A stretch of 64,000 nucleotides of DNA from an uncultured Candidatus Saccharibacteria bacterium (GTDB taxonomy: Bacteria > Patescibacteriota > Minisyncoccia > GWC2-36-17 > CAYHJU01), in contig CAYHJU010000001.1 of NCBI GenBank assembly GCA_964357175.1, positions 32,871 through 96,870 on the forward strand, written 5' to 3'. This document shows, one piece after another, positions 6,639 through 61,839 of the stretch. The notes below the pieces were generated by a model. It saw nothing but the letters and a program-made list of their open reading frames with translations, made no database searches and had not been told where the DNA came from. A program made the position numbers and the translations under genes. Within the stretch, counting starts at the first letter, position 1; each line of letters opens with the position of its first letter.

Positions 6639-6658
6639 CCTGCCTGCCGGCAGGCAGG
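6639..6658. repeat. perfect 20-nt palindrome CCTGCCTGCCGGCAGGCAGG, member of a dispersed family
   Basis: Exact palindrome 19 nt upstream of the receiver gene ATG; an identical copy at 18480-18499 and near-identical copies at 46740 and 48575. Confidence 0.7.
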
Positions 6659-18459: not shown

Positions 18460-18516
18460 GCGCCCGTAGCTCAGTGGTACCTGCCTGCCGGCAGGCAGGG
18501 AGCAGCTCCCTTTTAT
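18460..18516 (+). pseudogene. truncated 5' copy of tRNA-Lys (positions ~1-37) with a 20-nt palindrome inserted in the D-loop
   Basis: GCGCCCGTAGCTCAGTGGTA[CCTGCCTGCCGGCAGGCAGG]GAGCAGCTCCCTTTTA matches the intact tRNA-Lys at 18779 up to the anticodon loop and then diverges. Even the 2 nt upstream (AT) are shared. Confidence 0.6.
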
Positions 18517-18522
18517 ATAATT

Positions 18523-18768
18523 ATGATTCAATATTACATTTATGCTATAAAGAGTTACAAAGACGGAAGATTATATGTAGGAATAAGTAGAAATCCGGAG
18601 AGTAGATTAATCGAGCACAATTCTGGAATGACAAAATCTACAAAACCTTTCCGACCGTGGAAAATTGTGTTTAAAAGATTTATTGGTGACAGGAAGTCAG
18701 CTAGGATTGAGGAAAAGAAATTAAAGTCAGGATATGGTAAAGAGTTCTTAAAAAAATTGACTAGATAA
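18523..18768 (+). CDS. stand-alone GIY-YIG nuclease domain protein (81 aa)
   Basis: YYIYAIKS...GRLYVGIS...R...EHN motif layout of the GIY-YIG fold. Stop is 10 nt before the intact tRNA-Lys. Confidence 0.75.
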   Translation: MIQYYIYAIKSYKDGRLYVGISRNPESRLIEHNSGMTKSTKPFRPWKIVFKRFIGDRKSARIEEKKLKSGYGKEFLKKLTR

Positions 18769-18778
18769 AAACAAACAT

Positions 18779-18854
18779 GCGCCCGTAGCTCAGTTGGTAG
18801 AGCAGCTCCCTTTTAAGGAGATTGTCGTAGGTTCGATTCCTACCGGGCGCACCA
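18779..18854 (+). tRNA. tRNA-Lys (anticodon UUU), CCA encoded
   Basis: Cloverleaf folded by hand: acceptor GCGCCCG/CGGGCGC, D-arm GCTCAGTTGGTAGAGC, anticodon loop CTTTTAA, T-arm GTAGGTTCGATTCCTAC, ACCA. Confidence 0.85.
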
Positions 18855-18974: not shown

Positions 18975-19028
18975 GTGTCTACACTTAAATCAGGTTCTTT
19001 AATAATATAAAACTTTCAATTTTCAGCG

Positions 19029-19085
19029 CATGAGGCGAGCGTTTAGCAGATTAAATATTTTATTCTCTTAAACGCTCGTCTCATG
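19029..19085 (+). promoter_or_regulatory. 17-bp inverted repeat (leader hairpin) at the boundary of the GC-rich segment
   Basis: CATGAGGCGAGCGTTTA ... TAAACGCTCGTCTCATG with one mismatch. A second hairpin CCCGAGCGTCTCGGG+TATTTT at ~19125-19145 looks like a terminator/attenuator. Confidence 0.45.
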
Positions 19086-19165
19086 TGAGGCTGAGTCCCA
19101 CCTGTCGGTAGGCAGGCGCCAGCCCGAGCGTCTCGGGTATTTTCAAACTGTACAGGAGGTGTGCG

Positions 19166-19945
19166 ATGAGTAAAGACGTTGTAAGCCGTAGCCTGTCGGT
19201 GCATAAAGAGCACGAAGTGCTCCTGAAGCTCGAGGCCGCAGGTCTCACCGACGAACTCGCCCAGAAAGTCATCGGCTCCAAGGACAACGATCTTGCCACG
19301 AAGGTGGTGAGGTTGATTCAGAACGGTGGCTTTGAGGCCACCTCCTCCCAGAAGCGTGCCCGTGAGATCATGGGCAATAATTTCTTCGGCGTCGAAGAGA
19401 ATTTTAAACACTTCGGCATATACTACGCTATGGGTCCAGATGCCCGAAAGGCTCTTTCCGAAGTTCCCTTCACCGAAGAAGTTCTACAGGCGCACAAGGA
19501 CACTCACGTCCTCGTCGCAACCTTCCCACTTTCCATTCTCGACATTCGTAGCAAAGCTCCACGTAGCCTCTTCTACCGTCACGAAGACGCCTGGTGCAAC
19601 AGCCAGCGCTTTGCCAAGGACAAGGGAGAAGTCGCCTGGCATCTGGTCAGAAAAACCCCAGTTCAGAACTCCACCAACAGAACCTGGTCGGATCAGCAGT
19701 CTCTCCTTTCCCAGGATGAAGAAACTCCCACGGCCCGTGTCCTGACCTACACCATCATCGGTCACTTCCTGGCAACTGGAGAACGCCTGTTCGAACACAT
19801 CTATGTCCGTACATCGTCGGTGGTTTCGGACGACGACGGGGGCAGCGTTGGCTACTTCGGCTCCGGTGGTCTGCGCGTCGACAGCCGCTGGGATGACGGT
19901 CGCAGCGGCGATCTGGGTGTCTCGTCCTCCCGGAAGTCCAACTGA
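19166..19945 (+). CDS. hypothetical protein encoded in an anomalously GC-rich (~55 % by eye) segment
   Basis: 259-aa ORF preceded by a strong SD (ACAGGAGG, 7 nt before ATG); GC-rich third codon positions; no family recognised. Confidence 0.5.
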   Translation: MSKDVVSRSLSVHKEHEVLLKLEAAGLTDELAQKVIGSKDNDLATKVVRLIQNGGFEATSSQKRAREIMGNNFFGVEENFKHFGIYYAMGPDARKALSEVPFTEEVLQAHKDTHVLVATFPLSILDIRSKAPRSLFYRHEDAWCNSQRFAKDKGEVAWHLVRKTPVQNSTNRTWSDQQSLLSQDEETPTARVLTYTIIGHFLATGERLFEHIYVRTSSVVSDDDGGSVGYFGSGGLRVDSRWDDGRSGDLGVSSSRKSN

Positions 19946-19996
19946 ACATTGATCCGCCAGCTGGCGGATTGAAAATTTGATTCTTTTGAATCATTG

Positions 19997-20035
19997 AGCC
20001 CTCGGCGTAAAAACGCCGAGGGCTTTTCTTTTTAT
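19997..20035 (+). terminator. strong rho-independent terminator
   Basis: AGCCCTCGGCGtaaaaaCGCCGAGGGCT perfect 11-bp GC stem followed by TTTCTTTTTAT. Confidence 0.75.
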
Positions 20036-20381
20036 AAATATAGTAGGTATAATTTATACATCCCGCTAATGCAGGCGCGACTACGGTTTCGTCTCGCGGG
20101 ATATATAATTTTGCCGCATTATCGCTTATTACGCACAAAAACTAAACAGCGCATATTTAAAAAATTTAAAAATCGTGTGGGAGAATATAAGTCAGGTAAA
20201 ATTAGCAGGGATAAACTTGAACAATCGTTACAGTCCTATCTGGGCACTCTGTCTCACGCTGATGCTTATGACCTAAGCGAAGATTTGAAAAATCAGGTTT
20301 GGTTTTCAGGTTAAACGATTTTAATCTGTTTGGTCGCCATCGTGATTTTACTTTTGAGACAAGCCAGCTCATGTTGGAAAA

Positions 20382-20410
20382 TTGACACCTTTGTTGATTC
20401 GCGATAAAAT
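20382..20410 (+). promoter_or_regulatory. sigma70-like promoter of the thr operon (TTGACA-N17-TAAAAT)
   Basis: TTGACA at 20382-87 and TAAAAT at 20405-10; the leader-peptide ORF starts 10 nt downstream. Confidence 0.5.
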
Positions 20411-20419
20411 GATATTAAT

Positions 20420-20482
20420 ATGACAAATAAACAAATTTTTACCACCACTACTACAACGACTACAACCACTTTTAGTGGCTGA
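20420..20482 (+). CDS. thrL: thr operon leader peptide (Thr-codon rich), MTNKQIFTTTTTTTTTTFSG
   Basis: 20-codon ORF containing 11 Thr codons, 10 consecutive (ACC ACC ACT ACT ACA ACG ACT ACA ACC ACT). It sits between the promoter and a terminator hairpin, immediately upstream of the aspartokinase-homoserine dehydrogenase gene. Confidence 0.75.
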   Translation: MTNKQIFTTTTTTTTTTFSG

Positions 20483-20521
20483 GGTTTGTTGTTGAGATAT
20501 TTAAATATTATAAACACAACA

Positions 20522-36087: not shown

Positions 36088-36162
36088 ATGTTCATTCTAT
36101 CTCATTCAAAACAATATAACAAAAATTATTATTTTATTTCAGTTACAACTTAGTAATTTGTG

Positions 36163-36237
36163 CGGACCGTAGGGGATTTGAACCCCTGGTCTCCTCCGTG
36201 ACAGGGAGGCGTGTTAACCGGGCTACACCAACGGTCC
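36163..36237 (-). tRNA. tRNA-Asp (GUC)
   Basis: Minus strand: acceptor GGACCGT/ACGGTCC, anticodon stem CCTCC/GGAGG, loop CTGTCAC, T-arm AGGGGTTCAAATCCCCT, discriminator G. Confidence 0.8.
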
Positions 36238-36238
36238 A

Positions 36239-36487
36239 TTAATTAATATGTAATTTTTTAAACAAAATCTCCTTTTGCTGACTGTGTGTTTTTAATTCTA
36301 TTTCGCGTTTTAATGCGTCCACTTTCATTAGGTAAGCTTCATAATAGAGTAATGTAAATGGTGCGTATGACTTGGTCGACTTAACCTTTTTAGCATTATG
36401 CTCTTCAAATCTTCTTTTGAGATCTGATGTGGATCCTATATATATCCATTTCTTTATACCACTTTTTATTACATAAACATAATGCAT
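36239..36487 (-). CDS. stand-alone GIY-YIG nuclease domain protein (82 aa)
   Basis: MHYVYVIKS...KWIYIGST...R..EHN motif layout, paralogous to the ORF at 18523. Stop is 2 nt from the tRNA-Asp 5' end. Start set at the internal ATG (the ORF track extends into the pseudo-tRNA). Confidence 0.75.
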   Translation of the reverse strand: MHYVYVIKSGIKKWIYIGSTSDLKRRFEEHNAKKVKSTKSYAPFTLLYYEAYLMKVDALKREIELKTHSQQKEILFKKLHIN

Positions 36488-36499
36488 GTTCAAGTTATT

Positions 36500-36560
36500 A
36501 TTAAGCGAACCCTGGCTATCACCCTGCGGGTGACCACCCGTAGGGTGGCACCAACGGTCC
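36500..36560 (-). pseudogene. truncated 5' copy of tRNA-Asp with two palindromic hairpins inserted in the D-arm
   Basis: Minus strand reads GGACCGTTGGTG[CCACCCTACGGGTGG][TCACCCGCAGGGTGA]TAGCCAGGGTT..., matching tRNA-Asp positions 1-12 and ~13-22 around the inserted hairpins. Confidence 0.5.
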
Positions 36561-46625: not shown

Positions 46626-46739
46626 ACATTTTACCCCCACATCCACCTTAGCGCAAAGAGATAAAATCGGTGTTGATTCATAGACTGATATTTTGAAATT
46701 AGAGATATTAATATGTGTTGTGGGTGTGGGGCCTGCCTG

Positions 46740-46759
46740 CCGGTAGGCAGGGTTTACTC
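46740..46759. repeat. CCTGCCTGCCGGTAGGCAGG, one-mismatch copy of the dispersed 20-nt palindrome
   Basis: Intergenic, ~115 nt upstream of the GT gene start. Confidence 0.65.
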
Positions 46760-47177: not shown

Positions 47178-47233
47178 ATTGTATTAGAATCTTCCGCCCG
47201 AGGCGGACCAGCCTTGGGCTGGAGAATTTAAAT

Positions 47234-48574: not shown

Positions 48575-48594
48575 CCTGCCTACCGGTAGGTAGG
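48575..48594. repeat. CCTGCCTACCGGTAGGTAGG variant of the dispersed palindrome, in the tmRNA promoter region
   Basis: Lies 10 nt upstream of the tmRNA 5' end, between smpB and ssrA. Confidence 0.55.
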
Positions 48595-49071: not shown

Positions 49072-49384
49072 ATTTTTATTGTACAGTTTTTTGTCTGGCG
49101 GTCAAAGAAAATTTAAATCCTTATTGATTTTATTAAGAAAAGTTATTTTTATTCCCTAAACGATTTTTATCGAACATTTGCGCAGCGAAGACATAATTTA
49201 ATGATAAGTTTGAGCGGTCCGCCCAAGGCGGATAAGTCCGCCCTGGGCGGATTGGTTCAAGTTGTTTGAAGCCAGCCCCTTTGGATTATCCAAAGGGGCT
49301 GGCTGAGTTTTGAATCAAAGCGAAAAAGAATCTTAAATTATCTGAGCAAGCATCTGAGAGATAAAAAGCGTTTAAAGAAATTAG

Positions 49385-50458
49385 TTATATTTTCCAATTC
49401 GCGTCCACTTTAATTTTTTTCCAAGATGTTGCTTTATTTTTTAAATAGTAAGAAGCGACAGCGATCATCTGGGCGTTGTCGGTGCAAAGAGATTTTTTGG
49501 GGCAGTAAAATGATGCGCCTATTTTTTTTGATGCTTTTTTCATTTCGCTCACCAATTTTTCATTGGCCGCTACTCCACCGCCTAAAATGATAGATTTAAC
49601 TTTATATTTTTCTGCGGCACGCATAGTTTTAGTGACCAAGACATCTACAATCGCTTTCTGTATGGAGGCGCACAAATCATCTTTTTGTTTTTCACTAAGT
49701 TTTCCTAAAGATTTCACCAGATATAAAACAGCCGTTTTTAATCCTGAAAAGCTAAAATCCCAGCCCGAGGCTGGTCCGCCTCTGGCGGAGAAATTTACCT
49801 TTGCATTGAGCATTGGGCGCGGCAAATTAAATGCGACAGGATTTCCCACTTCAGCTCTTTTGGCGACGGCTGGCCCTCCTGGATACCCAATCTCCAAAAT
49901 TCTCGCCGCTTTATCAAATGTCTCGCCCGCGGCGTCGTCTCTGGTTTTTCCGATAGTTTTAAAATCCAGATGTTTTTTCATTAAGACAAGCTGGGTGTGA
50001 CCTCCGGAAACTATTAGGGCCAAGGCCGGAAATTTAATTTTATTATTTTCTAAAAAATTTGCGTAAATGTGTGCAATCAAATGGTTTGTTGGCACAATTT
50101 TTTTCTTCCAAGAAAAAGCGAGGGTCTTAGCGGCGCTTACGCCCATTAAAAGAGAGGGAGAAAGGCCTGGCCCAGAGGTGACGGCTATAAAATCAATTTT
50201 TTTAATAAGAGTCTTGATGTCAATTTTTAATTTTTCTTTTGCTTTGGTGAGGGTGCTATAAATGACAGGCGGCAAATTTTCTTCATGCGCCCTGCATGCC
50301 AAATTTGGCACAATTCCTCCAAAGGGGGAATGAATTTCATCCTGTGAAGATGTGGTGTTTGCGAGTATTTCAAAAGACGGGTTTTTGACAGGTCCGCTTA
50401 CTTTTAAAATTGCCGCTCCCGTATCATCGCAACTTGTTTCAATAGATAGAATTAACAT
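49385..50458 (-). CDS. tsaD: tRNA N6-adenosine threonylcarbamoyltransferase TsaD
   Basis: MLILSIETSCDDT N-terminus, HxxH metal site context, ASKH fold; 357 aa. Confidence 0.9.
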   Translation of the reverse strand: MLILSIETSCDDTGAAILKVSGPVKNPSFEILANTTSSQDEIHSPFGGIVPNLACRAHEENLPPVIYSTLTKAKEKLKIDIKTLIKKIDFIAVTSGPGLSPSLLMGVSAAKTLAFSWKKKIVPTNHLIAHIYANFLENNKIKFPALALIVSGGHTQLVLMKKHLDFKTIGKTRDDAAGETFDKAARILEIGYPGGPAVAKRAEVGNPVAFNLPRPMLNAKVNFSARGGPASGWDFSFSGLKTAVLYLVKSLGKLSEKQKDDLCASIQKAIVDVLVTKTMRAAEKYKVKSIILGGGVAANEKLVSEMKKASKKIGASFYCPKKSLCTDNAQMIAVASYYLKNKATSWKKIKVDANWKI

Positions 50459-56868: not shown

Positions 56869-58545
56869 ATGAAAATGTATAAGCAAAACTTATCTAACGG
56901 GGTAAAAACTAAACATCTTATTGTTGGTTCCGTTATTATAAGTTCTCTGATAATCGGCTCGGCTGTTTTGATCGGTAAGGTTTTTGCTCAAGAGGCGGGC
57001 GGAGTTGCCAGTATCCAATATCCGGTCAAAGAATTGGGCGGTTGTAAAGATGAGGCGGCTTGCAGGTCTTATTGTGATAAGACCGAGAACACGAGCGCCT
57101 GTTTAAATTTTGCTGAAAAAAACAATTTAATGCCCAAAGAAGAAATCGAGAGGGCAAAAAAATTTGTGGCATCTGGGAGCAAGGGTCCGGGTAATTGTCG
57201 CGGTAAAAATGAGTGCGAGACTTATTGTAACGACATAACCCGCATTGATGAATGCGTCGCCTTCGCCGAAAAAAATAATTTGATGACTGCGAATGATTTG
57301 GTAGAGGCCAAAAAAGTTCAAGCCGCTATCAAAAGAGGCGTGAAGCCTCCGGCCTGTGGAAATAAAGACCAGTGCGACGCTTATTGTAGCGAAGCCGGTC
57401 ATATGGAAGAATGTATTTCTTTTGCTTCGGAGGCCGGTTTTATTCAGGGCAAAGAACTTGAAGATGCCCAGAAAATGTTGGTAGCCATTAAAAAAGGAGT
57501 GAAGCCGTTACCATGTCGTGGCAAGGATGCTTGCGATGCCTATTGTAGTAGCCCCGATAATATGGAGGCGTGTATAAGCTTTGCTTCGGAGGCCGGTTTT
57601 ATGAGCGATCAGGAAAAAGCTGATTCCCAAAAAATGTTGCAGGCTTTGAAAAAGGGAATCAAACCACCGGCCTGCAAGGGCAAGGAGGAGTGTGATAATT
57701 ATTGTTCACAAGATGCGCACTTTGAAGAATGTCTTAAATTTTCCGAAGCGGCTGGATTTATGAATGCGGAGGAAGCCGCTATGGCTCGGAAAACTGGAGG
57801 CAAGGGTCCAGGAGGCTGTAAGAGTAAAGATGAGTGTGAGGCCCTTTGTAATAATCCAGACAATCAAGAAATGTGCTTTAATTTTGGAAAAGAAAACGGC
57901 ATGATTCCACCGGAAGATTTAAAGAGAATGGAAGAAGGAAAGCAAAAATTTCAAGAAACATTAAACCAGGCGCCATCATCTGTGCTTGAATGTCTTGATT
58001 CTCAGATTGGAGCGGAGATGATGGCAAAATTCAAAAGTGGCACGACTATGCCACCTAAAGAAATTGGAGGTCAGATGAAAAATTGTTTTGAAAAAATGAT
58101 GGGTCCGGGTGAACCAGGTGCAGGTGGCGCGATGGCGCCTGGCGGACAGTCCGCGCCGGGCGGATCTTCGGGTTTTGGTAGTGGCGGACAATTTGCACCA
58201 GGCACCAGCGACCCAAATATTCAACCCGGACAATTTCCACCAGCAGGACCGGGTGCTTGCCAAAATCCTGAAGAATGTCAAGGACAACAGCAAATGCCAA
58301 ATAATATGATGGCACCTCCGCAACCATGCCAAGGAGAAAATTGTGGTCCAACAGAGCCTATGGGTCAACCTGGAGAATATCAATCAGCGCCACCCGGATC
58401 TTTCTTGCCGCCGATAAATCAGCAATCACCATTAAACCAACAGCCACTGATAAATAATATTGTGCCGCCTCCAAGTGGCGCCATTACTCCAGAGTCACTG
58501 CCGGGTTTCTTTTTAAATGTATTTTTATTGATGTTTGGTCTTTAA
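56869..58545 (+). CDS. secreted protein with six tandem ~50-aa four-cysteine repeats and a Pro/Gly/Gln-rich C-terminal region
   Basis: N-terminal TM/signal, then repeats of the form C.GK.EC..YC....... .EC..FA...G(F/L)M....L..A.K, then low-complexity PGQ-rich tail and terminal hydrophobic segment. Confidence 0.6.
   Translation: MKMYKQNLSNGVKTKHLIVGSVIISSLIIGSAVLIGKVFAQEAGGVASIQYPVKELGGCKDEAACRSYCDKTENTSACLNFAEKNNLMPKEEIERAKKFVASGSKGPGNCRGKNECETYCNDITRIDECVAFAEKNNLMTANDLVEAKKVQAAIKRGVKPPACGNKDQCDAYCSEAGHMEECISFASEAGFIQGKELEDAQKMLVAIKKGVKPLPCRGKDACDAYCSSPDNMEACISFASEAGFMSDQEKADSQKMLQALKKGIKPPACKGKEECDNYCSQDAHFEECLKFSEAAGFMNAEEAAMARKTGGKGPGGCKSKDECEALCNNPDNQEMCFNFGKENGMIPPEDLKRMEEGKQKFQETLNQAPSSVLECLDSQIGAEMMAKFKSGTTMPPKEIGGQMKNCFEKMMGPGEPGAGGAMAPGGQSAPGGSSGFGSGGQFAPGTSDPNIQPGQFPPAGPGACQNPEECQGQQQMPNNMMAPPQPCQGENCGPTEPMGQPGEYQSAPPGSFLPPINQQSPLNQQPLINNIVPPPSGAITPESLPGFFLNVFLLMFGL
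57013..57900 (+). repeat. in-frame tandem coding repeats (~150 nt x6) inside the Cys-rich protein gene
   Basis: Recurrent segments encoding ...C(D/E)AYCS...M(E/D)(E/A)CISFASEAGF... at 57361, 57517, 57670. Confidence 0.5.
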
Positions 58546-58673: not shown

Positions 58674-60626
58674 ATGCCAAATCAAGATCGATCAGAAAAT
58701 ATAAAAAATACGCGTTATGGTGAGGGCAAATATAGGGCACTTTTTATGGCGTCTCGTGACGCCGTTATGACTCTTGAGGCGCCGTCCTGGAAGTTTACAT
58801 CTGGAAATCCGGCCACAGTAGAAATGTTTAAGGCAAAGGATGAGGCAGAATTTTTATCTTATGAGCCGTGGAAATTATCTCCCAAGCTTCAACCGGATGG
58901 TCGCGCTTCTGACAAAAAAGCTAAAGAAATGATTGAAAAAGCGATGCGCGAGGGATCTAATTTTTTTGAGTGGACGCACAAGCGTTTAAATGGCGAGAAT
59001 TTTTTCGCAGAAGTTTTATTATCAAGAGTTGAGTATGACGGAGAAGCGTTTCTTCATGCTGTGGTCAGGGATGTTACTGAGCAAAAAAAAATGGCAGAAA
59101 AGTTAAAAGAACAGGAAGAAGAAAAATTTAGGACCGTTTTTGATGGCGCAAGTGACGGAATGCTTTTGATGGATATATCGATCAAAAAATTTTACCTTTA
59201 CAATAAGGCAATTTGCCGAATGTTGGGATATGGTCCCGAAGAGATAAAAAATTTAAGCGCCACAGATATTTGTTCAAAAAACGATTCGGCTTATGTTTTG
59301 AAGCAATTCGATAGATTGACAGCAGGAGAAATTGAATCAATTGATGGTGTTGCAATAAAAAGAAAAGACAGCAGTGTTTTTTATGCTGATATTACCGGTT
59401 CTAAAATAATAATAAGCGGTAAAATGTATTGTTTGGGCATTTTCAGAGATGTAACTGAACATAAAAAAATGGAGGAAGAGCTCAAGAACAAATATGAAGA
59501 GATAGAAAAAGAAAAAGAAGAAACTAGGTTGTTGGCTCAAAATTTGGAGAAATTTAAGCTTGCTGTGGAAAGCGCCTCTGATCATATAGTGATTACTGAC
59601 GCAGAAGGCATTATTTTATATGCGAATAAAGCAACAGAACATATCACGGGGTATCCAATAAGGGAAATTATTGGAGCGAAGGCAGGAAAACCCTGGGGTG
59701 GACTAATGGACAAAGATTTTTATGTAAAAATGTGGAAAGTGATTAAACAAGACAAGAAAACTTTTAAAGGAGAAATTAAAAATAAACGTAAAAATGGGCA
59801 AATTTATGATGCTGAAACGAGCATTTCTCCCATATTTAATAAAAATGGCGAGGTGGAATTTTTTGTTAGTATAGAACGCGACATAACAACAGTAAAAGAA
59901 ATTGATCGGGCAAAAAGTGAGTTTGTTTCTCTGGCGTCGCACCAGCTTCGTACTCCGCTTACAGCAATCAGTTGGTATTTAGAAGAGGTGTTTGATGAAA
60001 AAACTGGAAAGCTTAATAAACAACAAAAAGAATATTTAAACGAGGTACAAAATAGTAGCCGCAGAATGATCGATCTAATAAACAACCTTTTGAATCTTTC
60101 CAGAATTGAGCTTGGCACATTTGCTATTATGCCAAGATCCACCGATTTGGTTGAATTGGCTGAAGACGCGATAAAAGACGTTGTCCTACAGGCGAGATTA
60201 AAAAAAATCAAAATAGAAAAAGATTACGAAGAGGGCTTATCAAAAATTAATCTCGATCCAAAGTTAACTGCGATGGTTTTTCAAAATCTTGTTTCTAATG
60301 CAATAAAATATACTCCAGAGAACGGGGAAATAAACATAAAAATAAAAAAAGAAGGCGAAAATGCGCTTATCGTGGTAAAAGATACCGGCTACGGAATACC
60401 CAAAGACGCACAATCTAAAATTTTTACTAAATTTTATCGTGCCGACAATGTTCGCACACAGGATCCCAACGGTAACGGATTGGGGCTTTATATTGTAAAA
60501 GCGATAGTAGAAAAATCCAAGGGAAAAATCTGGTTTGAGTCTGAAGAGGACAAGAGCCTGCCTGCCGGTAGGCATGGCACGACATTCTTTGTTTCTTTAC
60601 CTTTGGGAAAAGCCGAAAGTAAATAA
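58674..60626 (+). CDS. cytoplasmic sensor histidine kinase with three PAS domains
   Basis: No TM segments; PAS/PAC repeats; HisKA H-box SHQLRTPLTAISWY; HATPase_c N/G boxes (NAIKYT, GNGLGL). Confidence 0.8.
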   Translation: MPNQDRSENIKNTRYGEGKYRALFMASRDAVMTLEAPSWKFTSGNPATVEMFKAKDEAEFLSYEPWKLSPKLQPDGRASDKKAKEMIEKAMREGSNFFEWTHKRLNGENFFAEVLLSRVEYDGEAFLHAVVRDVTEQKKMAEKLKEQEEEKFRTVFDGASDGMLLMDISIKKFYLYNKAICRMLGYGPEEIKNLSATDICSKNDSAYVLKQFDRLTAGEIESIDGVAIKRKDSSVFYADITGSKIIISGKMYCLGIFRDVTEHKKMEEELKNKYEEIEKEKEETRLLAQNLEKFKLAVESASDHIVITDAEGIILYANKATEHITGYPIREIIGAKAGKPWGGLMDKDFYVKMWKVIKQDKKTFKGEIKNKRKNGQIYDAETSISPIFNKNGEVEFFVSIERDITTVKEIDRAKSEFVSLASHQLRTPLTAISWYLEEVFDEKTGKLNKQQKEYLNEVQNSSRRMIDLINNLLNLSRIELGTFAIMPRSTDLVELAEDAIKDVVLQARLKKIKIEKDYEEGLSKINLDPKLTAMVFQNLVSNAIKYTPENGEINIKIKKEGENALIVVKDTGYGIPKDAQSKIFTKFYRADNVRTQDPNGNGLGLYIVKAIVEKSKGKIWFESEEDKSLPAGRHGTTFFVSLPLGKAESK

Positions 60627-60654: not shown

Positions 60655-61839
60655 ATGCCAATCCAATCATCTATTCTCAACGCCATCTTTGACACCACAC
60701 TGGCATTGTATAGGGTTGCAGATAAGATTTTTGACGACAATTTTTTTAAAAAGAAATTGCGCAGATGTGGCCTAGAGATTCTAATCTTGGTTCAAGCTGT
60801 TTTTTCTGGTGATAATTTTGATCAAAACGCCCACTTTGCTTTGGAGAAAAAAATAGATGACATTTTATTATTATTAAAATTTGGGAAGTCTTATTACCAT
60901 TTAGTTAATCCCCTTAATTTTTCTATACTAATAAATTCTTATGAATCACTACAACCGGAAATCTATCAAAGTTTGGCTTCAGTAGAAAAGGCGACAAAAG
61001 CTCGTTTTGTTAAAAATACGGAGAACGAGTCCGATCAACCAACCAAGGATTTTATGGAAAAAGATGAATTTGTATATTTAGCCTCTCACCAATTGCGAAC
61101 CCCGTTGTCTGCGATTAGTTGGTATGCTGAGATGCTTTTGTCCGAAGATGCTGGCAATATCAATCAACAACAGAAAAAGTATTTGGAAGAAGTTTATAAT
61201 AACAGTCAAAAAATGTCGCAGCTAATAAATACTCTCTTAAACATTTCTCGAATTGAATCGGGATGTTTCGCTGTGGAAATAAAACCACTCAATTTTTCTG
61301 TGATTTTAGATGATGTATTGCTGGAGCTTGATCATGAAATTTCTAATAAAAAAATTACTATTGAAAAAATTTATAACCCTACGCCAACAGTAAAAGCCGA
61401 TTATCATTTGGCATATGTTATTTTTCAAAACTTAATATCTAATTCCATCAAATATACTCCTGAGGGAGGGGAGATAAAAATTGAAGTTAATTTTTTAAAA
61501 AACGAAAAAGAGATTAATCTTAAAATAAAAGAATGCGTTTTGATTAAAATTTCAGATAATGGTTATGGTATTCCAAAAAATCAGCAAGAAAAAGTTTTTA
61601 CTAAGTTATTTCGGGGAGACAACATTAAAAACAAGGATTCCGCAGGATTTGGCATCGGTTTGTACACGGTAAAATTAATGTCAGATCGCTGTGGGTTTAA
61701 AATATGGTTTGAGTCTGAAGAGGACAGTGGTCTGTCTGCCAGTAGGCATGGCACGACCTTTTATATCGCTATTCCCTTGGAGGGAATGAAAGAAAAAGAG
61801 GGTTCGGAAGATAAAAAAAATGAGCATAGTTTAAGTTAA
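60655..61839 (+). CDS. histidine kinase (no PAS; N-terminal domain of unknown function)
   Basis: H-box SHQLRTPLSAISWY, N-box NSIKYT, G-box GFGIGL. Start set at the ATG at 60655 to avoid overlapping the preceding kinase. Confidence 0.75.
   Translation: MPIQSSILNAIFDTTLALYRVADKIFDDNFFKKKLRRCGLEILILVQAVFSGDNFDQNAHFALEKKIDDILLLLKFGKSYYHLVNPLNFSILINSYESLQPEIYQSLASVEKATKARFVKNTENESDQPTKDFMEKDEFVYLASHQLRTPLSAISWYAEMLLSEDAGNINQQQKKYLEEVYNNSQKMSQLINTLLNISRIESGCFAVEIKPLNFSVILDDVLLELDHEISNKKITIEKIYNPTPTVKADYHLAYVIFQNLISNSIKYTPEGGEIKIEVNFLKNEKEINLKIKECVLIKISDNGYGIPKNQQEKVFTKLFRGDNIKNKDSAGFGIGLYTVKLMSDRCGFKIWFESEEDSGLSASRHGTTFYIAIPLEGMKEKEGSEDKKNEHSLS

What the first reader, a model, noticed from the sequence alone, without database searches (positions are those of the whole stretch)
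6639..6658. Dispersed perfect 20-nt palindrome CCTGCCTGCCGGCAGGCAGG at multiple intergenic sites
Exact copies sit 19 nt upstream of the pilus-operon receiver gene (6639-6658) and inside the pseudo-tRNA-Lys D-loop (18480-18499). One-mismatch or variant copies sit upstream of the GT39-like gene (46740-46759) and in the tmRNA promoter region (48575-48594). Degenerate relatives occur at 1407-1420 and 19101-19116. A 20-bp perfect palindrome recurring near promoters is what a dimeric transcription-factor operator or a REP-like mobile hairpin looks like. Its presence inside the tRNA fragment favours mobility or insertion. A related CCTGCCGGTAGGCATGGCACGAC occurs in-frame in both histidine kinase genes (encoding LPAGRHGT); that may be coincidence or a historical in-frame insertion.
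Basis: seen in the sequence. Interest (0 to 1): 0.5.

Follow-up and report, generated by a model that had tools for sequence, protein, structure and literature searches.

The report
Cross-phylum mobile 20-bp palindromic insert
The 20-base palindrome is a real, tiny piece of mobile DNA that occurs letter-for-letter in many bacterial phyla, drops precisely into hairpin loops, and almost always accompanies small GIY-YIG nuclease genes lodged at tRNA genes; I found no description of this selfish-DNA pairing, and it is not a regulator's binding site.

Summary
The palindrome P (CCTGCCTGCCGGCAGGCAGG) is real. There are two exact copies, three close variants and one decayed copy in 64 kb, against none in shuffles.

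It behaves as an inserted, mobile hairpin, not an operator:
- Relatives have orthologous sites without it. One is a precise 20-nt, duplication-free empty site.
- In a histidine kinase it forms a 7-residue in-frame insertion absent from 119 of 120 homologues.
- The same 20-mer occurs in at least 120 genome stretches from many phyla, with unrelated flanks.

The main new result is an association. I fetched 80 metagenome loci by similarity to the window's 81-aa GIY-YIG protein alone. Of the 77 with enough upstream sequence, 59 carry P or a near-variant (39 exact) just upstream of the gene. There it sits in a loop, mostly the D-loop/stem junction, of a duplicated fragment of the tRNA gene that follows.

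In the window, this 319-nt unit (18460-18778) is present or absent within a single aquifer population, with otherwise identical sequence.

The nuclease is of the SLX1/YhbQ structure-selective type.

I infer that P is a hairpin element inserted at breaks in hairpin loops, and that it shields the nuclease cassette from deletion. The enzymology is untested. I found no published description.

The parts
6639..6658 (.). Solo exact copy of P in the pilB-to-receiver-gene spacer
   Evidence: Orthologous spacers in relatives are 12-19 nt long and lack P (L260-L263, L265, L266). L264 has a 1-mismatch copy in different flanks.
18460..18778 (+). 319-nt cassette: pseudo 5' half of tRNA-Lys carrying P, plus the GIY-YIG gene. 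It is a presence/absence polymorphism.
   Evidence: L269, from the same aquifer population, equals the window with exactly these 319 nt removed: 0 mismatches over 4222 nt.
18460..18479 (+). Pseudo-tRNA-Lys positions 1-21 (one T missing in the D-loop)
18480..18499 (.). Exact P inserted at the junction of the D-loop and the 3' D-stem (GGTA|P|GAGC) of the pseudo-tRNA
   Evidence: This is the position found in 32 of 60 insertions in independent loci.
18500..18515 (+). Pseudo-tRNA-Lys positions 22-37 (3' D-stem to anticodon loop)
18523..18768 (+). 81-aa GIY-YIG nuclease gene (SLX1/YhbQ/UPF0213-like)
   Evidence: Pfam PF01541, E=3.9e-14. Profile matches to PDB 1zg2 and 1ywl (UPF0213) and to SLX1 chains.
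18779..18854 (+). Intact tRNA-Lys(TTT), whose 5' half is duplicated upstream
46732..46751 (.). Solo P variant (CCGGTAGG) between the rplT terminator and the PMT-family glycosyltransferase gene, in the loop of a host hairpin
   Evidence: L257 has the empty site GTGTGGAGGCAAAC|CCCCACACCCACAACAC. Fold.
48575..48594 (.). Solo P variant (A8-T13 compensated, plus T17) between smpB and the tmRNA gene
   Evidence: Absent from L257. L253 has only a TAGGCAGG right-arm-like stretch.
60555..60575 (+). 21-nt in-frame insertion (encodes SLPAGRH) holding a decayed P in the HATPase domain of a histidine kinase
61731..61750 (+). The same insertion, more decayed (encodes GLSASRH), in the paralogous kinase
19097..19116 (.). 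Probable decayed P (4 mismatches, right arm intact)
36239..36560 (-). Second cassette of the same build, on the minus strand. Pseudo 5' part of tRNA-Asp (36560-36549), interrupted by two other 15-nt GC hairpins (36548-36534 and 36533-36519). Then an 82-aa GIY-YIG gene (36487-36239), directly followed by intact tRNA-Asp (36237-36162).

Best explanation
P is a miniature selfish insertion: a 20-bp perfect palindrome (8-bp stem, CCGG loop).

What it does:
- It enters DNA precisely, without target-site duplication.
- It prefers loops or loop/stem junctions of sequences that can themselves form hairpins.
- It survives mostly between genes and occasionally in frame within genes.

Its constant partner is a small free-standing GIY-YIG nuclease gene of the structure-selective SLX1/YhbQ type. 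That gene nests at tRNA genes between the intact tRNA and a duplicated fragment of it. P (or a similar roughly 20-nt GC hairpin) interrupts the duplicated fragment, most often at the D-loop/3' D-stem junction.

Shown here:
- precise insertion
- presence/absence polymorphism
- spread across phyla
- loop preference
- the statistical link to the nuclease cassette

Inferred:
(a) The nuclease, or breaks it makes at stem-loop junctions of single-stranded or extruded DNA, is what lets P be copied or pasted into new loops.
(b) Inside the cassette, P is kept because it breaks the direct repeat into stretches of about 22 nt or less and poisons recombinants. Recombination downstream of P would build a dead tRNA. 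This hinders loss of the nuclease gene.
(c) tRNA-gene conservation lets the cassette, with P aboard, cross wide taxonomic distances, after which P multiplies locally.

The four solo copies in this window are most likely passengers with no regulatory role.
For: Non-random and widespread:
- 0 matches in shuffles.
They include cultured isolates, span locus GC of 0.26-0.72, and have unrelated flanks.
- My estimate for uniform composition is about 2 expected matches.
- 48 stretches in IMG/VR.

Precise insertion:
- In tRNA fragments the extra sequence is exactly the 20 nt, with no duplication.
- Empty orthologous site in L257.
- Spacer polymorphism in relatives.
- 7-residue insertion in the kinase, absent from 119 of 120 homologues.
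- P nested inside P near its loop.

Loop preference:
- 52 of 60 hairpin insertions in pseudo-tRNAs are at unpaired positions or junctions, 32 of them at one junction.
- Flanks of genomic copies pair over 8 bp or more in 6.6% of cases, against 0.9% of controls. Examples include terminator loops.

Link to the nuclease:
- Loci were chosen by protein similarity only. 59 of 77 have P or a variant with up to 3 mismatches ending 16-100 nt upstream of the ORF; 39 are exact.
- Nearly all have a same-strand tRNA gene abutting or overlapping the ORF's 3' end.
- A mirror form puts P in a 3' tRNA fragment downstream of the ORF. P therefore follows the duplicated fragment, not the ORF's 5' end.

The cassette is a discrete mobile or losable unit: filled and empty alleles differ by exactly 319 nt in one population.

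The nuclease looks functional and structure-selective in type:
- 75 of 80 ORFs are intact, with conserved Tyr, Tyr-x-Gly, Arg, His and Glu.
- Profile matches to UPF0213 and SLX1 structures.
- The Slx1/YhbQ/YazA family is described in PMC7017083.

Repeat interruption: uninterrupted identity between the pseudo-copy and the tRNA is mostly 23 nt or less.
Against: - No enzymatic step has been shown.
- About 95% of genomic P copies have no GIY-YIG gene within the 8-kb stretch held. Whole genomes could not be checked for co-occurrence.
- Many of the 80 loci share descent (for example the tRNA-Arg-CCT group), so the counts overstate the number of independent events.
- An 80-aa nuclease has no ligase or polymerase function, so other host factors must be assumed.
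- Some pseudo-copies keep 29-44 nt of uninterrupted identity (L221, L215, L179). This weakens the anti-deletion argument.
- The empty allele may be a loss rather than the ancestral state.
- The intact downstream tRNA copy is not protected by P, so a simple story of immunity to self-cleavage does not work.
- At 6639 the window differs from relatives by about 41 nt, not by P alone.
Confidence: 0.68

Rival explanations
1. P is the operator of a dimeric transcription factor that co-regulates the pilus operon, the glycosyltransferase, tmRNA and other genes.
For: P is a perfect 20-bp dyad. Three window copies lie upstream of genes or RNAs.
Against: - The sites are absent from the orthologous spacers of relatives whose flanking proteins are 76-94% identical.
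- Copies also lie inside a pseudo-tRNA, inside a kinase gene and in terminator loops.
- The identical 20-mer occurs in many phyla with unrelated neighbours.
- The distance to start codons is not fixed.
Confidence: 0.03
2. P is a REP element mobilised in trans by a RAYT (IS200-like Y1 HUH transposase), as in proteobacterial REP/BIME systems.
For: - P is a short, GC-rich, extragenic palindrome.
- The common variant reads CCG-GTAG-GCAGG, which contains the REP-type GTAG (37+23 of 183 copies).
- Three IS200-like ORFs occur in Bacteroidota loci. One starts 15 nt from P (L047).
Against: - No Y1 transposase ORF was found in the window by phmmer with the L047 protein.
- Only 1 of 3 RAYT-like genes is next to P, and it is not flanked on both sides.
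- The dominant form has GCAG, not GTAG.
- REPs are imperfect and lineage-specific, whereas P is perfect and identical across phyla.
- The strong association is with GIY-YIG genes (59 of 77), not with Y1 genes.
Confidence: 0.08
3. P is not copied from other copies. It is built anew at double-strand breaks. Both 3' ends receive the same short tail (CCTG repeats ending in CCGG), and the tails anneal through the self-complementary CCGG. This gives a perfect palindrome with no duplication.
For: - Perfect symmetry and no target duplication.
- Length variants differ by whole CCTG/CAGG units: CCTGCCGGCAGGCAGG, CCTGCCTGCCTGCCGGCAGG, CCTGCAGG.
- The sequence is identical in distant phyla.
Against: - No polymerase or template is known or encoded nearby.
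- Unit-length variants are equally explained by slippage.
- Lineage-typical variants, such as the T13 form common in Chitinophagia/Sphingobacteriia loci, suggest copying from resident copies.
- Other unrelated hairpins (TCCGCC..GGCGGA, CCTCCC..GGGAGG) occupy the same sites.
Confidence: 0.08
4. P is only a built-in functional module of the nuclease cassette, for example a leader hairpin that stabilises the mRNA made from the tRNA promoter. Solo copies are leftovers of decayed cassettes and were never independently mobile.
For: - In the main architecture P lies 16-50 nt upstream of the start codon, in the transcript leader.
- In the sense orientation the G-T wobble variant outnumbers the A-C variant 7 to 1.
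- There are compensated variants: A8-T13, and G1-C20 in L232.
Against: - In the mirror architecture P lies downstream of the ORF.
- Solo copies are exact 20-21-nt insertions with no tRNA or ORF remnants around them.
- P is nested in P and sits in terminator loops.
Confidence: 0.08
5. Chance, low-complexity sequence or an assembly or library artefact.
For: Most carriers are metagenome-assembled genomes.
Against: - 0 matches in shuffles.
- Identical sites appear in four independent assemblies of the same population.
- P is present in cultured isolates.
- It has a consistent biological context.
- The direct repeats are too short (15-16 nt) to collapse at usual k-mer sizes (my inference).
Confidence: 0.01

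Closest known systems
Mitochondrial palindromic GC clusters (yeast GC42 and relatives; Neurospora PstI palindromes flanking tRNA genes; Allomyces double-hairpin elements)
   Same: These are short GC-rich palindromes scattered in AT-rich genomes. They are polymorphic between strains, transferred between species, and merge or nest into one another (PMC4478555). From my own knowledge, they also insert into genes and sit next to tRNA genes, in genomes rich in free-standing GIY-YIG/LAGLIDADG ORFs.
   Different: They are organellar, longer (about 30-50 nt or more), and several classes show short target duplications. No defined partnership with a nuclease gene has been established for them. P is bacterial, 20 bp, free of duplication, and statistically tied to one nuclease family.
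REP/BIME elements with RAYT transposases (own knowledge)
   Same: Extragenic GC-rich hairpins, multiple copies per genome, no autonomous coding capacity. The GTAG of the P variant resembles the REP head.
   Different: REPs are imperfect, lineage-specific, often paired as REPINs, and linked to a Y1 HUH transposase. P is a perfect palindrome shared by many phyla and is linked to a GIY-YIG gene.
Rickettsia palindromic elements (own knowledge)
   Same: Palindromic repeats that insert in frame into protein-coding genes and into RNA genes without destroying them. Here this applies to the kinase and, for the second hairpin family, to TsaD.
   Different: RPEs are about 100-150 bp and confined to one genus. 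No nuclease partner is known.
Free-standing GIY-YIG homing endonucleases, e.g. phage T4 SegB in the tRNA gene cluster (PMC2330249, abstract seen)
   Same: A GIY-YIG gene lying among or next to tRNA genes and behaving as a presence/absence polymorphism.
   Different: The Seg and I-TevI enzymes carry a DNA-binding domain and are 200 aa or more. This protein is about 80 aa, the catalytic domain only, and is closest to UPF0213/SLX1. The partial tRNA duplication interrupted by a palindrome is not part of the Seg paradigm. Homing has not been shown here.
SLX1/YhbQ/YazA URI-domain structure-selective nucleases (PMC7017083)
   Same: Sequence-profile similarity of the nuclease. A structure-selective enzyme would fit insertion at stem-loop junctions.
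   Different: SLX1 has a zinc-finger domain and works with SLX4 in repair. No link to mobile palindromes or tRNA genes is described for it.

Membership tests
REP/RAYT system | Imperfect palindrome with a conserved 5' GTAG head | tested here: not met
   The dominant form is a perfect palindrome with GCAG. GTAG occurs only in the T13/A8 variants (60 of 183 copies).
REP/RAYT system | A RAYT (Y1 transposase) gene in the genome, typically flanked by its REPs | tested here: inconclusive
   None in the 64-kb window. There are 3 IS200-like ORFs in 120 P-bearing loci, and only one is adjacent to P, on one side. Whole genomes were not available.
REP/RAYT system | Lineage-specific sequence | tested here: not met
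   The identical 20-mer occurs in many phyla.
Transcription-factor operator | Conserved presence and position at orthologous promoters | tested here: not met
   Absent from, or different at, all three orthologous spacers in relatives.
Transcription-factor operator | Confined to regulatory regions | tested here: not met
   Copies lie in a pseudo-tRNA, in coding sequence and in terminator loops.
MITE (transposase-dependent miniature inverted-repeat element) | Terminal inverted repeats plus target-site duplication | tested here: not met
   Insertions into tRNA sequence and the L257 empty site show exactly 20 nt added and no duplication.
MITE (transposase-dependent miniature inverted-repeat element) | A parent insertion sequence with matching ends | not tested
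   No IS with CCTGCCTGCC-type ends was looked for beyond the loci held. No recurrent transposase was found near P.
Intrinsic terminator | GC hairpin followed by a T run | tested here: not met
   Only 12 of 183 copies have a tail with 6 or more T in 9 nt on either side.
Free-standing GIY-YIG homing-endonuclease element | GIY-YIG catalytic domain with conserved catalytic residues | tested here: met
   PF01541. Tyr, Tyr-x-Gly, Arg, His and Glu are conserved in 75 intact ORFs.
Free-standing GIY-YIG homing-endonuclease element | Presence/absence polymorphism at a fixed genomic site | tested here: met
   Filled and empty alleles differ by exactly 319 nt, with 0 mismatches elsewhere.
Free-standing GIY-YIG homing-endonuclease element | The enzyme cleaves the empty allele, and the element-bearing allele is immune | not testable with these tools
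   This needs biochemistry. The intact downstream tRNA copy is unchanged, so immunity is unexplained.
Mitochondrial-type GC-cluster mobile palindromes | GC-rich palindrome in an AT-rich genome, with a sporadic and polymorphic distribution | tested here: met
   The window is about 40% GC and P is 75% GC. Polymorphism.
Mitochondrial-type GC-cluster mobile palindromes | Organellar location and homology to known GC-cluster classes | tested here: not met
   The host is a Parcubacteria chromosome. Exact sequence-string searches of the literature found no match.

The most novel reading that the evidence does not exclude
P, and sister hairpins such as TCCGCC-N4-GGCGGA, would be structure-defined mobile elements whose 'transposase' is not a transposase. 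It would be an 80-residue SLX1/YhbQ-type GIY-YIG nuclease that cuts at stem-loop junctions. On this reading the nuclease gene nests at tRNA genes, uses P to guard its own flanking repeat, and uses tRNA conservation to cross phyla. That would be a new class of bacterial selfish DNA and a bacterial counterpart of the long-unexplained mitochondrial GC clusters.
Probability: 0.3. Interest if true: 0.85.

Novelty: new variant of a known kind. Interest (0 to 1): 0.72.

Why it matters
- How short palindromic repeats spread is known only for REP/RAYT. For mitochondrial GC clusters and Rickettsia elements it remains open. Here a very small element has a clear candidate enzyme partner, defined insertion sites and natural filled and empty alleles, so the question can be tested directly.
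- The small YhbQ/UPF0213 nucleases are widespread and have no known function. This gives them a concrete genomic role.
- There is a practical consequence for annotation of Patescibacteria and Bacteroidota genomes. These cassettes create tRNA fragments, ORFs that run into tRNA genes, and 7-11-residue insertions in conserved proteins. All of these can be mis-annotated.

Tried and rejected
- **Operator reading:** rejected on non-conservation at orthologous sites.
- **Terminator reading:** rejected, because few copies have T tails.
- **Recurrent neighbouring protein:** all-against-all BLAST of ORFs from 120 P loci found no shared neighbour apart from a few GIY-YIG and three IS200-like ORFs.
- **RAYT link:** weak.
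- **Carriage by cultured phages or plasmids:** no tblastn match for the nuclease, and only 2 relatives in IMG/VR.
- **Strain polymorphism at the solo sites:** none. Four assemblies of the same population were at least 99.97% identical there.
- **An error of mine, corrected:** I first read tRNAs 'about 300 nt downstream' as tandem cassettes. That came from my distance formula. Those tRNAs in fact overlap the ORF's 3' end.
- **Immunity idea:** P protecting the cassette from its own nuclease does not hold in simple form, because the intact downstream tRNA keeps the same sequence.
- **Literature:** exact-sequence and keyword searches found no description. The library lacks most subscription journals, so this is not proof of novelty.
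- **NCBIfam:** no specific family for the 81-aa protein.

Full report
**1. Observation**

P = CCTGCCTGCCGGCAGGCAGG. Copies in the window:
- exact at 6639-6658 and 18480-18499
- three mismatches at 48575-48594
- two mismatches at 60557-60576, inside a histidine kinase gene

None of 100 dinucleotide-preserving shuffles gave a match at up to 3 mismatches.

The window is about 40% GC. It comes from a Parcubacteria genome in Hainich aquifer metagenomes. Its SmpB is 90% identical to that of Parcubacteria GW2011_GWA2_39_18.

Of the two 'degenerate relatives', 19097-19116 is a plausible decayed copy and 1407-1420 is not demonstrable. As single-stranded DNA, P forms an 8-bp stem with a CCGG loop, -8 kcal/mol.

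**2. Local contexts**

- **6639.** P lies in the spacer between a PilB-type ATPase gene and a receiver-domain gene.
- **46732.** P lies between the rplT terminator and a PMT-family glycosyltransferase gene, inside the loop of a host hairpin.
- **48575.** P lies between smpB and the tmRNA gene.
- **18460-18854.** This region reads as follows:
  - tRNA-Lys positions 1-21
  - P
  - tRNA-Lys positions 22-37
  - 7 nt
  - an 81-aa GIY-YIG ORF
  - 10 nt
  - intact tRNA-Lys
- **tRNA-Asp, minus strand.** A second cassette of the same build sits here. Its pseudo-fragment carries two other 15-nt GC hairpins instead of P.

**3. P is an insertion, and it is polymorphic**

- *Empty site.* In L257, a relative with 76% SmpB identity, the rplT-downstream spacer reads GTGTGGAGGCAAAC|CCCCACACCCACAACAC. 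The window has the 20 nt of P exactly at the bar. Of the next 33 nt on the right flank, 31 are conserved. There is no duplication.
- *pilB-receiver spacer.* It is 12-19 nt long and P-free in three related lineages. A fourth has a 1-mismatch P in different flanks.
- *tmRNA-upstream copy.* It is absent from L257.
- *Kinase.* SLPAGRH is a 7-residue (21-nt) insertion between EDK and GTTF. It is absent from 119 of 120 homologues. It is shared in decayed form by the paralogous kinase next door, so it predates their duplication.

**4. Distribution**

They come from Bacteroidota (including cultured Winogradskyella, Olivibacter and Flagellimonas), many Patescibacteria classes, Omnitrophota, Planctomycetota, Nitrospirota, Chloroflexota, Ignavibacteria, Bdellovibrionales and proteobacterial MAGs.
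- I estimate about 2 matches by chance for uniform composition.
- The flanks are unrelated.
- 29% of copies lie within long ORFs, against 79% of random positions. Where P is read through, the frame is usually LPAGRQ.
- Only 12 of 183 copies have T-rich tails.
- The flanks pair with each other more often than control flanks do: stems of 8 bp or more in 6.6% against 0.9%. Some copies sit in terminator loops, and P is found inserted into the loop of another P.
- 48 stretches occur in IMG/VR contigs.

**5. The association that explains the tRNA copy**

Among P-selected loci, every GIY-YIG ORF of this family that lay beside P showed the window's architecture. Examples are L025 (Bacteroidota), L052 (WWE3) and L093. 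L118 has a P-like sequence replacing 19 nt of the fragment.

For an unbiased test I fetched 80 metagenome loci by similarity to the protein alone.
- *tRNA neighbour.* Nearly all loci have a same-strand tRNA gene abutting or overlapping the ORF's 3' end. At least 16 tRNA species are involved: Arg, Lys, Asn, Leu, Met, Phe, His and Thr isoacceptors.
- *Stop codon.* In many loci the ORF's stop codon lies inside the tRNA gene.
- *P upstream.* Of the 77 loci with at least 100 nt of upstream sequence, 59 carry P or a variant with up to 3 mismatches ending 16-100 nt upstream of the ORF. In 39 it is exact.
- *What the upstream sequence is.* Alignments show it is a copy of the 5' part of the downstream tRNA, with exactly P added.
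- *Position of the 60 GC-rich hairpin insertions mapped onto tRNA structure:*

| Position in the tRNA | Number |
|---|---|
| D-loop / 3' D-stem junction | 32 |
| Within the D-loop | 7 |
| T-loop (GGTTC\|GATTCC) | 5 |
| Anticodon-loop junctions | 4 |
| Single-stranded linkers | 4 |
| 5' stems (5 of them one nucleotide from the loop) | 7 |
| Not classifiable | 1 |

- *Other hairpins.* Other roughly 19-20-nt hairpins occupy the same or a second site: TCCGCC-N4-GGCGGA-CAGG, CCTCCC-N4-GGGAGG and CCTGTC-type.
- *Mirror form.* The order is intact tRNA-Leu, then the ORF, then P plus a copy of the 3' part of the tRNA. P therefore tracks the duplicated tRNA fragment, not the ORF's 5' end.

The pseudo-fragments have no obvious function. 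Their loop-restricted insertions therefore point to the insertion mechanism rather than to selection. This step is inference.

**6. The cassette is a discrete unit**

- Contig L269, from the same aquifer population, is identical to the window over 4222 nt except that 18460-18778 (319 nt) is missing. That leaves the native upstream sequence joined to an intact tRNA-Lys.
- Three other contigs carry the filled junction.
- Gain by insertion or homing cannot be told apart from loss by recombination within the 15-nt repeat upstream of P.
- In L169 the ORF is 93% identical. Its pseudo-fragment has the window's acceptor sequence (GCGCCCG), but the adjacent intact tRNA-Lys is of another type (GCCTCGA). 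So the fragment-P-ORF unit has been juxtaposed with different tRNA alleles.

**7. The protein**

- It matches Pfam GIY-YIG.
- A profile of six members matches the UPF0213 structures 1zg2 and 1ywl and several SLX1 chains.
- 75 of 80 ORFs are intact. The catalytic Tyr, Tyr-x-Gly, Arg, His and Glu are conserved.
- It was not found in cultured phages or plasmids, and it is rare in IMG/VR.

**8. Mechanism, with what is shown and what is inferred**

*Shown:*
- precise, duplication-free 20-nt insertion
- preference for loops
- polymorphism
- spread across phyla
- tight linkage to the nuclease cassette
- indel behaviour of the cassette

*Inferred:*
- A structure-selective nuclease that cuts at stem-loop junctions of transiently single-stranded DNA would create the observed target sites. 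The displaced sense strand of a heavily transcribed tRNA gene is one such substrate. The same enzyme could also release or expose P, whose ends coincide with the foot of its own stem. Host ligation or repair would complete the transfer.
- Within the cassette, P cuts the direct repeat into stretches mostly of 23 nt or less. Any crossover downstream of P would then yield a tRNA carrying P. This should lower the rate at which the nuclease gene is lost.
- tRNA conservation offers homology for transfer between distant hosts.

*Weak hints that the sense-strand hairpin matters:*
- The G-T wobble variant outnumbers the A-C variant 7 to 1 in the sense orientation.
- There are compensated variants: A8-T13 in the window's 48575 copy and in L240, and G1-C20 in L232.

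*Rivals* are scored in their own section: operator, REP/RAYT, de novo synthesis at breaks, a purely cassette-internal module, and artefact.

**9. Comparison and novelty**

The closest analogues are:
- mitochondrial GC clusters, which are mobile, nest or merge, and transfer between species (PMC4478555)
- REP/RAYT systems
- Rickettsia palindromic elements
- free-standing GIY-YIG genes such as T4 segB in a tRNA cluster (PMC2330249)

P fails the defining tests for REP, MITE, terminator and operator. It meets only the general description of a mobile GC palindrome.

No paper in the searchable library mentions the sequence or the architecture. I therefore rate it as a new variant of a known kind. I give about a 0.3 chance that the nuclease-hairpin partnership is a mechanistically new class.

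Noticed in passing
window 47193-47222, 49760-49789 (inside tsaD, 49385-50458 minus strand), 19953-19968, 49218-49252: A second GC-hairpin family, TCCGCC-N4-GGCGGA, often followed by CCAGCC-N4-GGCTGG. It has 5 copies in the window and 45 sites in 27 of the loci held, with 0 in reversed-sequence controls. It is also present in a Planctomycetales locus (L030) and in pseudo-tRNAs beside GIY-YIG genes (L183, L185, L234). In TsaD it forms an 11-residue in-frame insertion absent from relatives at 91% and 84% identity.
   Followed up: partly
window 36162-36560 (minus strand): A second GIY-YIG cassette at tRNA-Asp. Its pseudo 5' fragment is interrupted by two other 15-nt hairpins (CCACCCTACGGGTGG and TCACCCGCAGGGTGA) instead of P. 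Similar CCCAC..GTGGG hairpins flank the P copies at 46732 and 48575.
   Followed up: partly
L186, L190, L196, L204, L229 and many others of L169-L248: The GIY-YIG reading frame runs into the downstream tRNA gene and ends at a TAG or TAA inside it (in GTAGCTC, GGATAGAGC, or the anticodon loop of tRNA-Arg-CCT). RNase P processing of the tRNA would therefore remove the stop codon from the mRNA.
   Followed up: partly
L169 1-520: Downstream of the intact tRNA-Lys lies a further tRNA-Lys fragment with two P copies, one in the D-loop and one in the anticodon loop, and no ORF. The fragments match the window's tRNA-Lys type, not the intact gene between them.
   Followed up: partly
L047 3500-4175: An IS200-like (RAYT-like) Y1 transposase ORF starts 15 nt after a P variant. 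It is preceded by a run of four other small hairpins. Two more such ORFs are in L073 and L010, not next to P.
   Followed up: partly
L089 3861-4145: A GIY-YIG domain lies in frame within a long ORF that looks like a type I restriction specificity subunit. P is read through 41 nt upstream of the domain. This may be a cassette inserted into a gene.
   Followed up: no
L257 780-1050: A minus-strand tRNA preceded by pieces of itself that are split by long AT- and GC-rich hairpin insertions. A 2-mismatch P lies nearby at 709. No GIY-YIG ORF is visible.
   Followed up: no
L253 1632-2777: The TsaD of the 90% relative carries a different 35-residue insertion near its C-terminus that is absent from the window and from L257.
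   Followed up: no
window 19000-20500: A stretch of higher GC (0.45) just downstream of tRNA-Lys, with overlapping ORFs on both strands. It has a 27-nt inverted repeat at 19029-19085. A 259-aa ORF (19166-19945) has no Pfam match. It may be foreign DNA at the tRNA locus.
   Followed up: no
window 57173-57851: Three coding repeats 159 nt apart (71-nt cores, 62-77% identical), rich in Cys codons, inside the 558-aa ORF 56869-58545.
   Followed up: no
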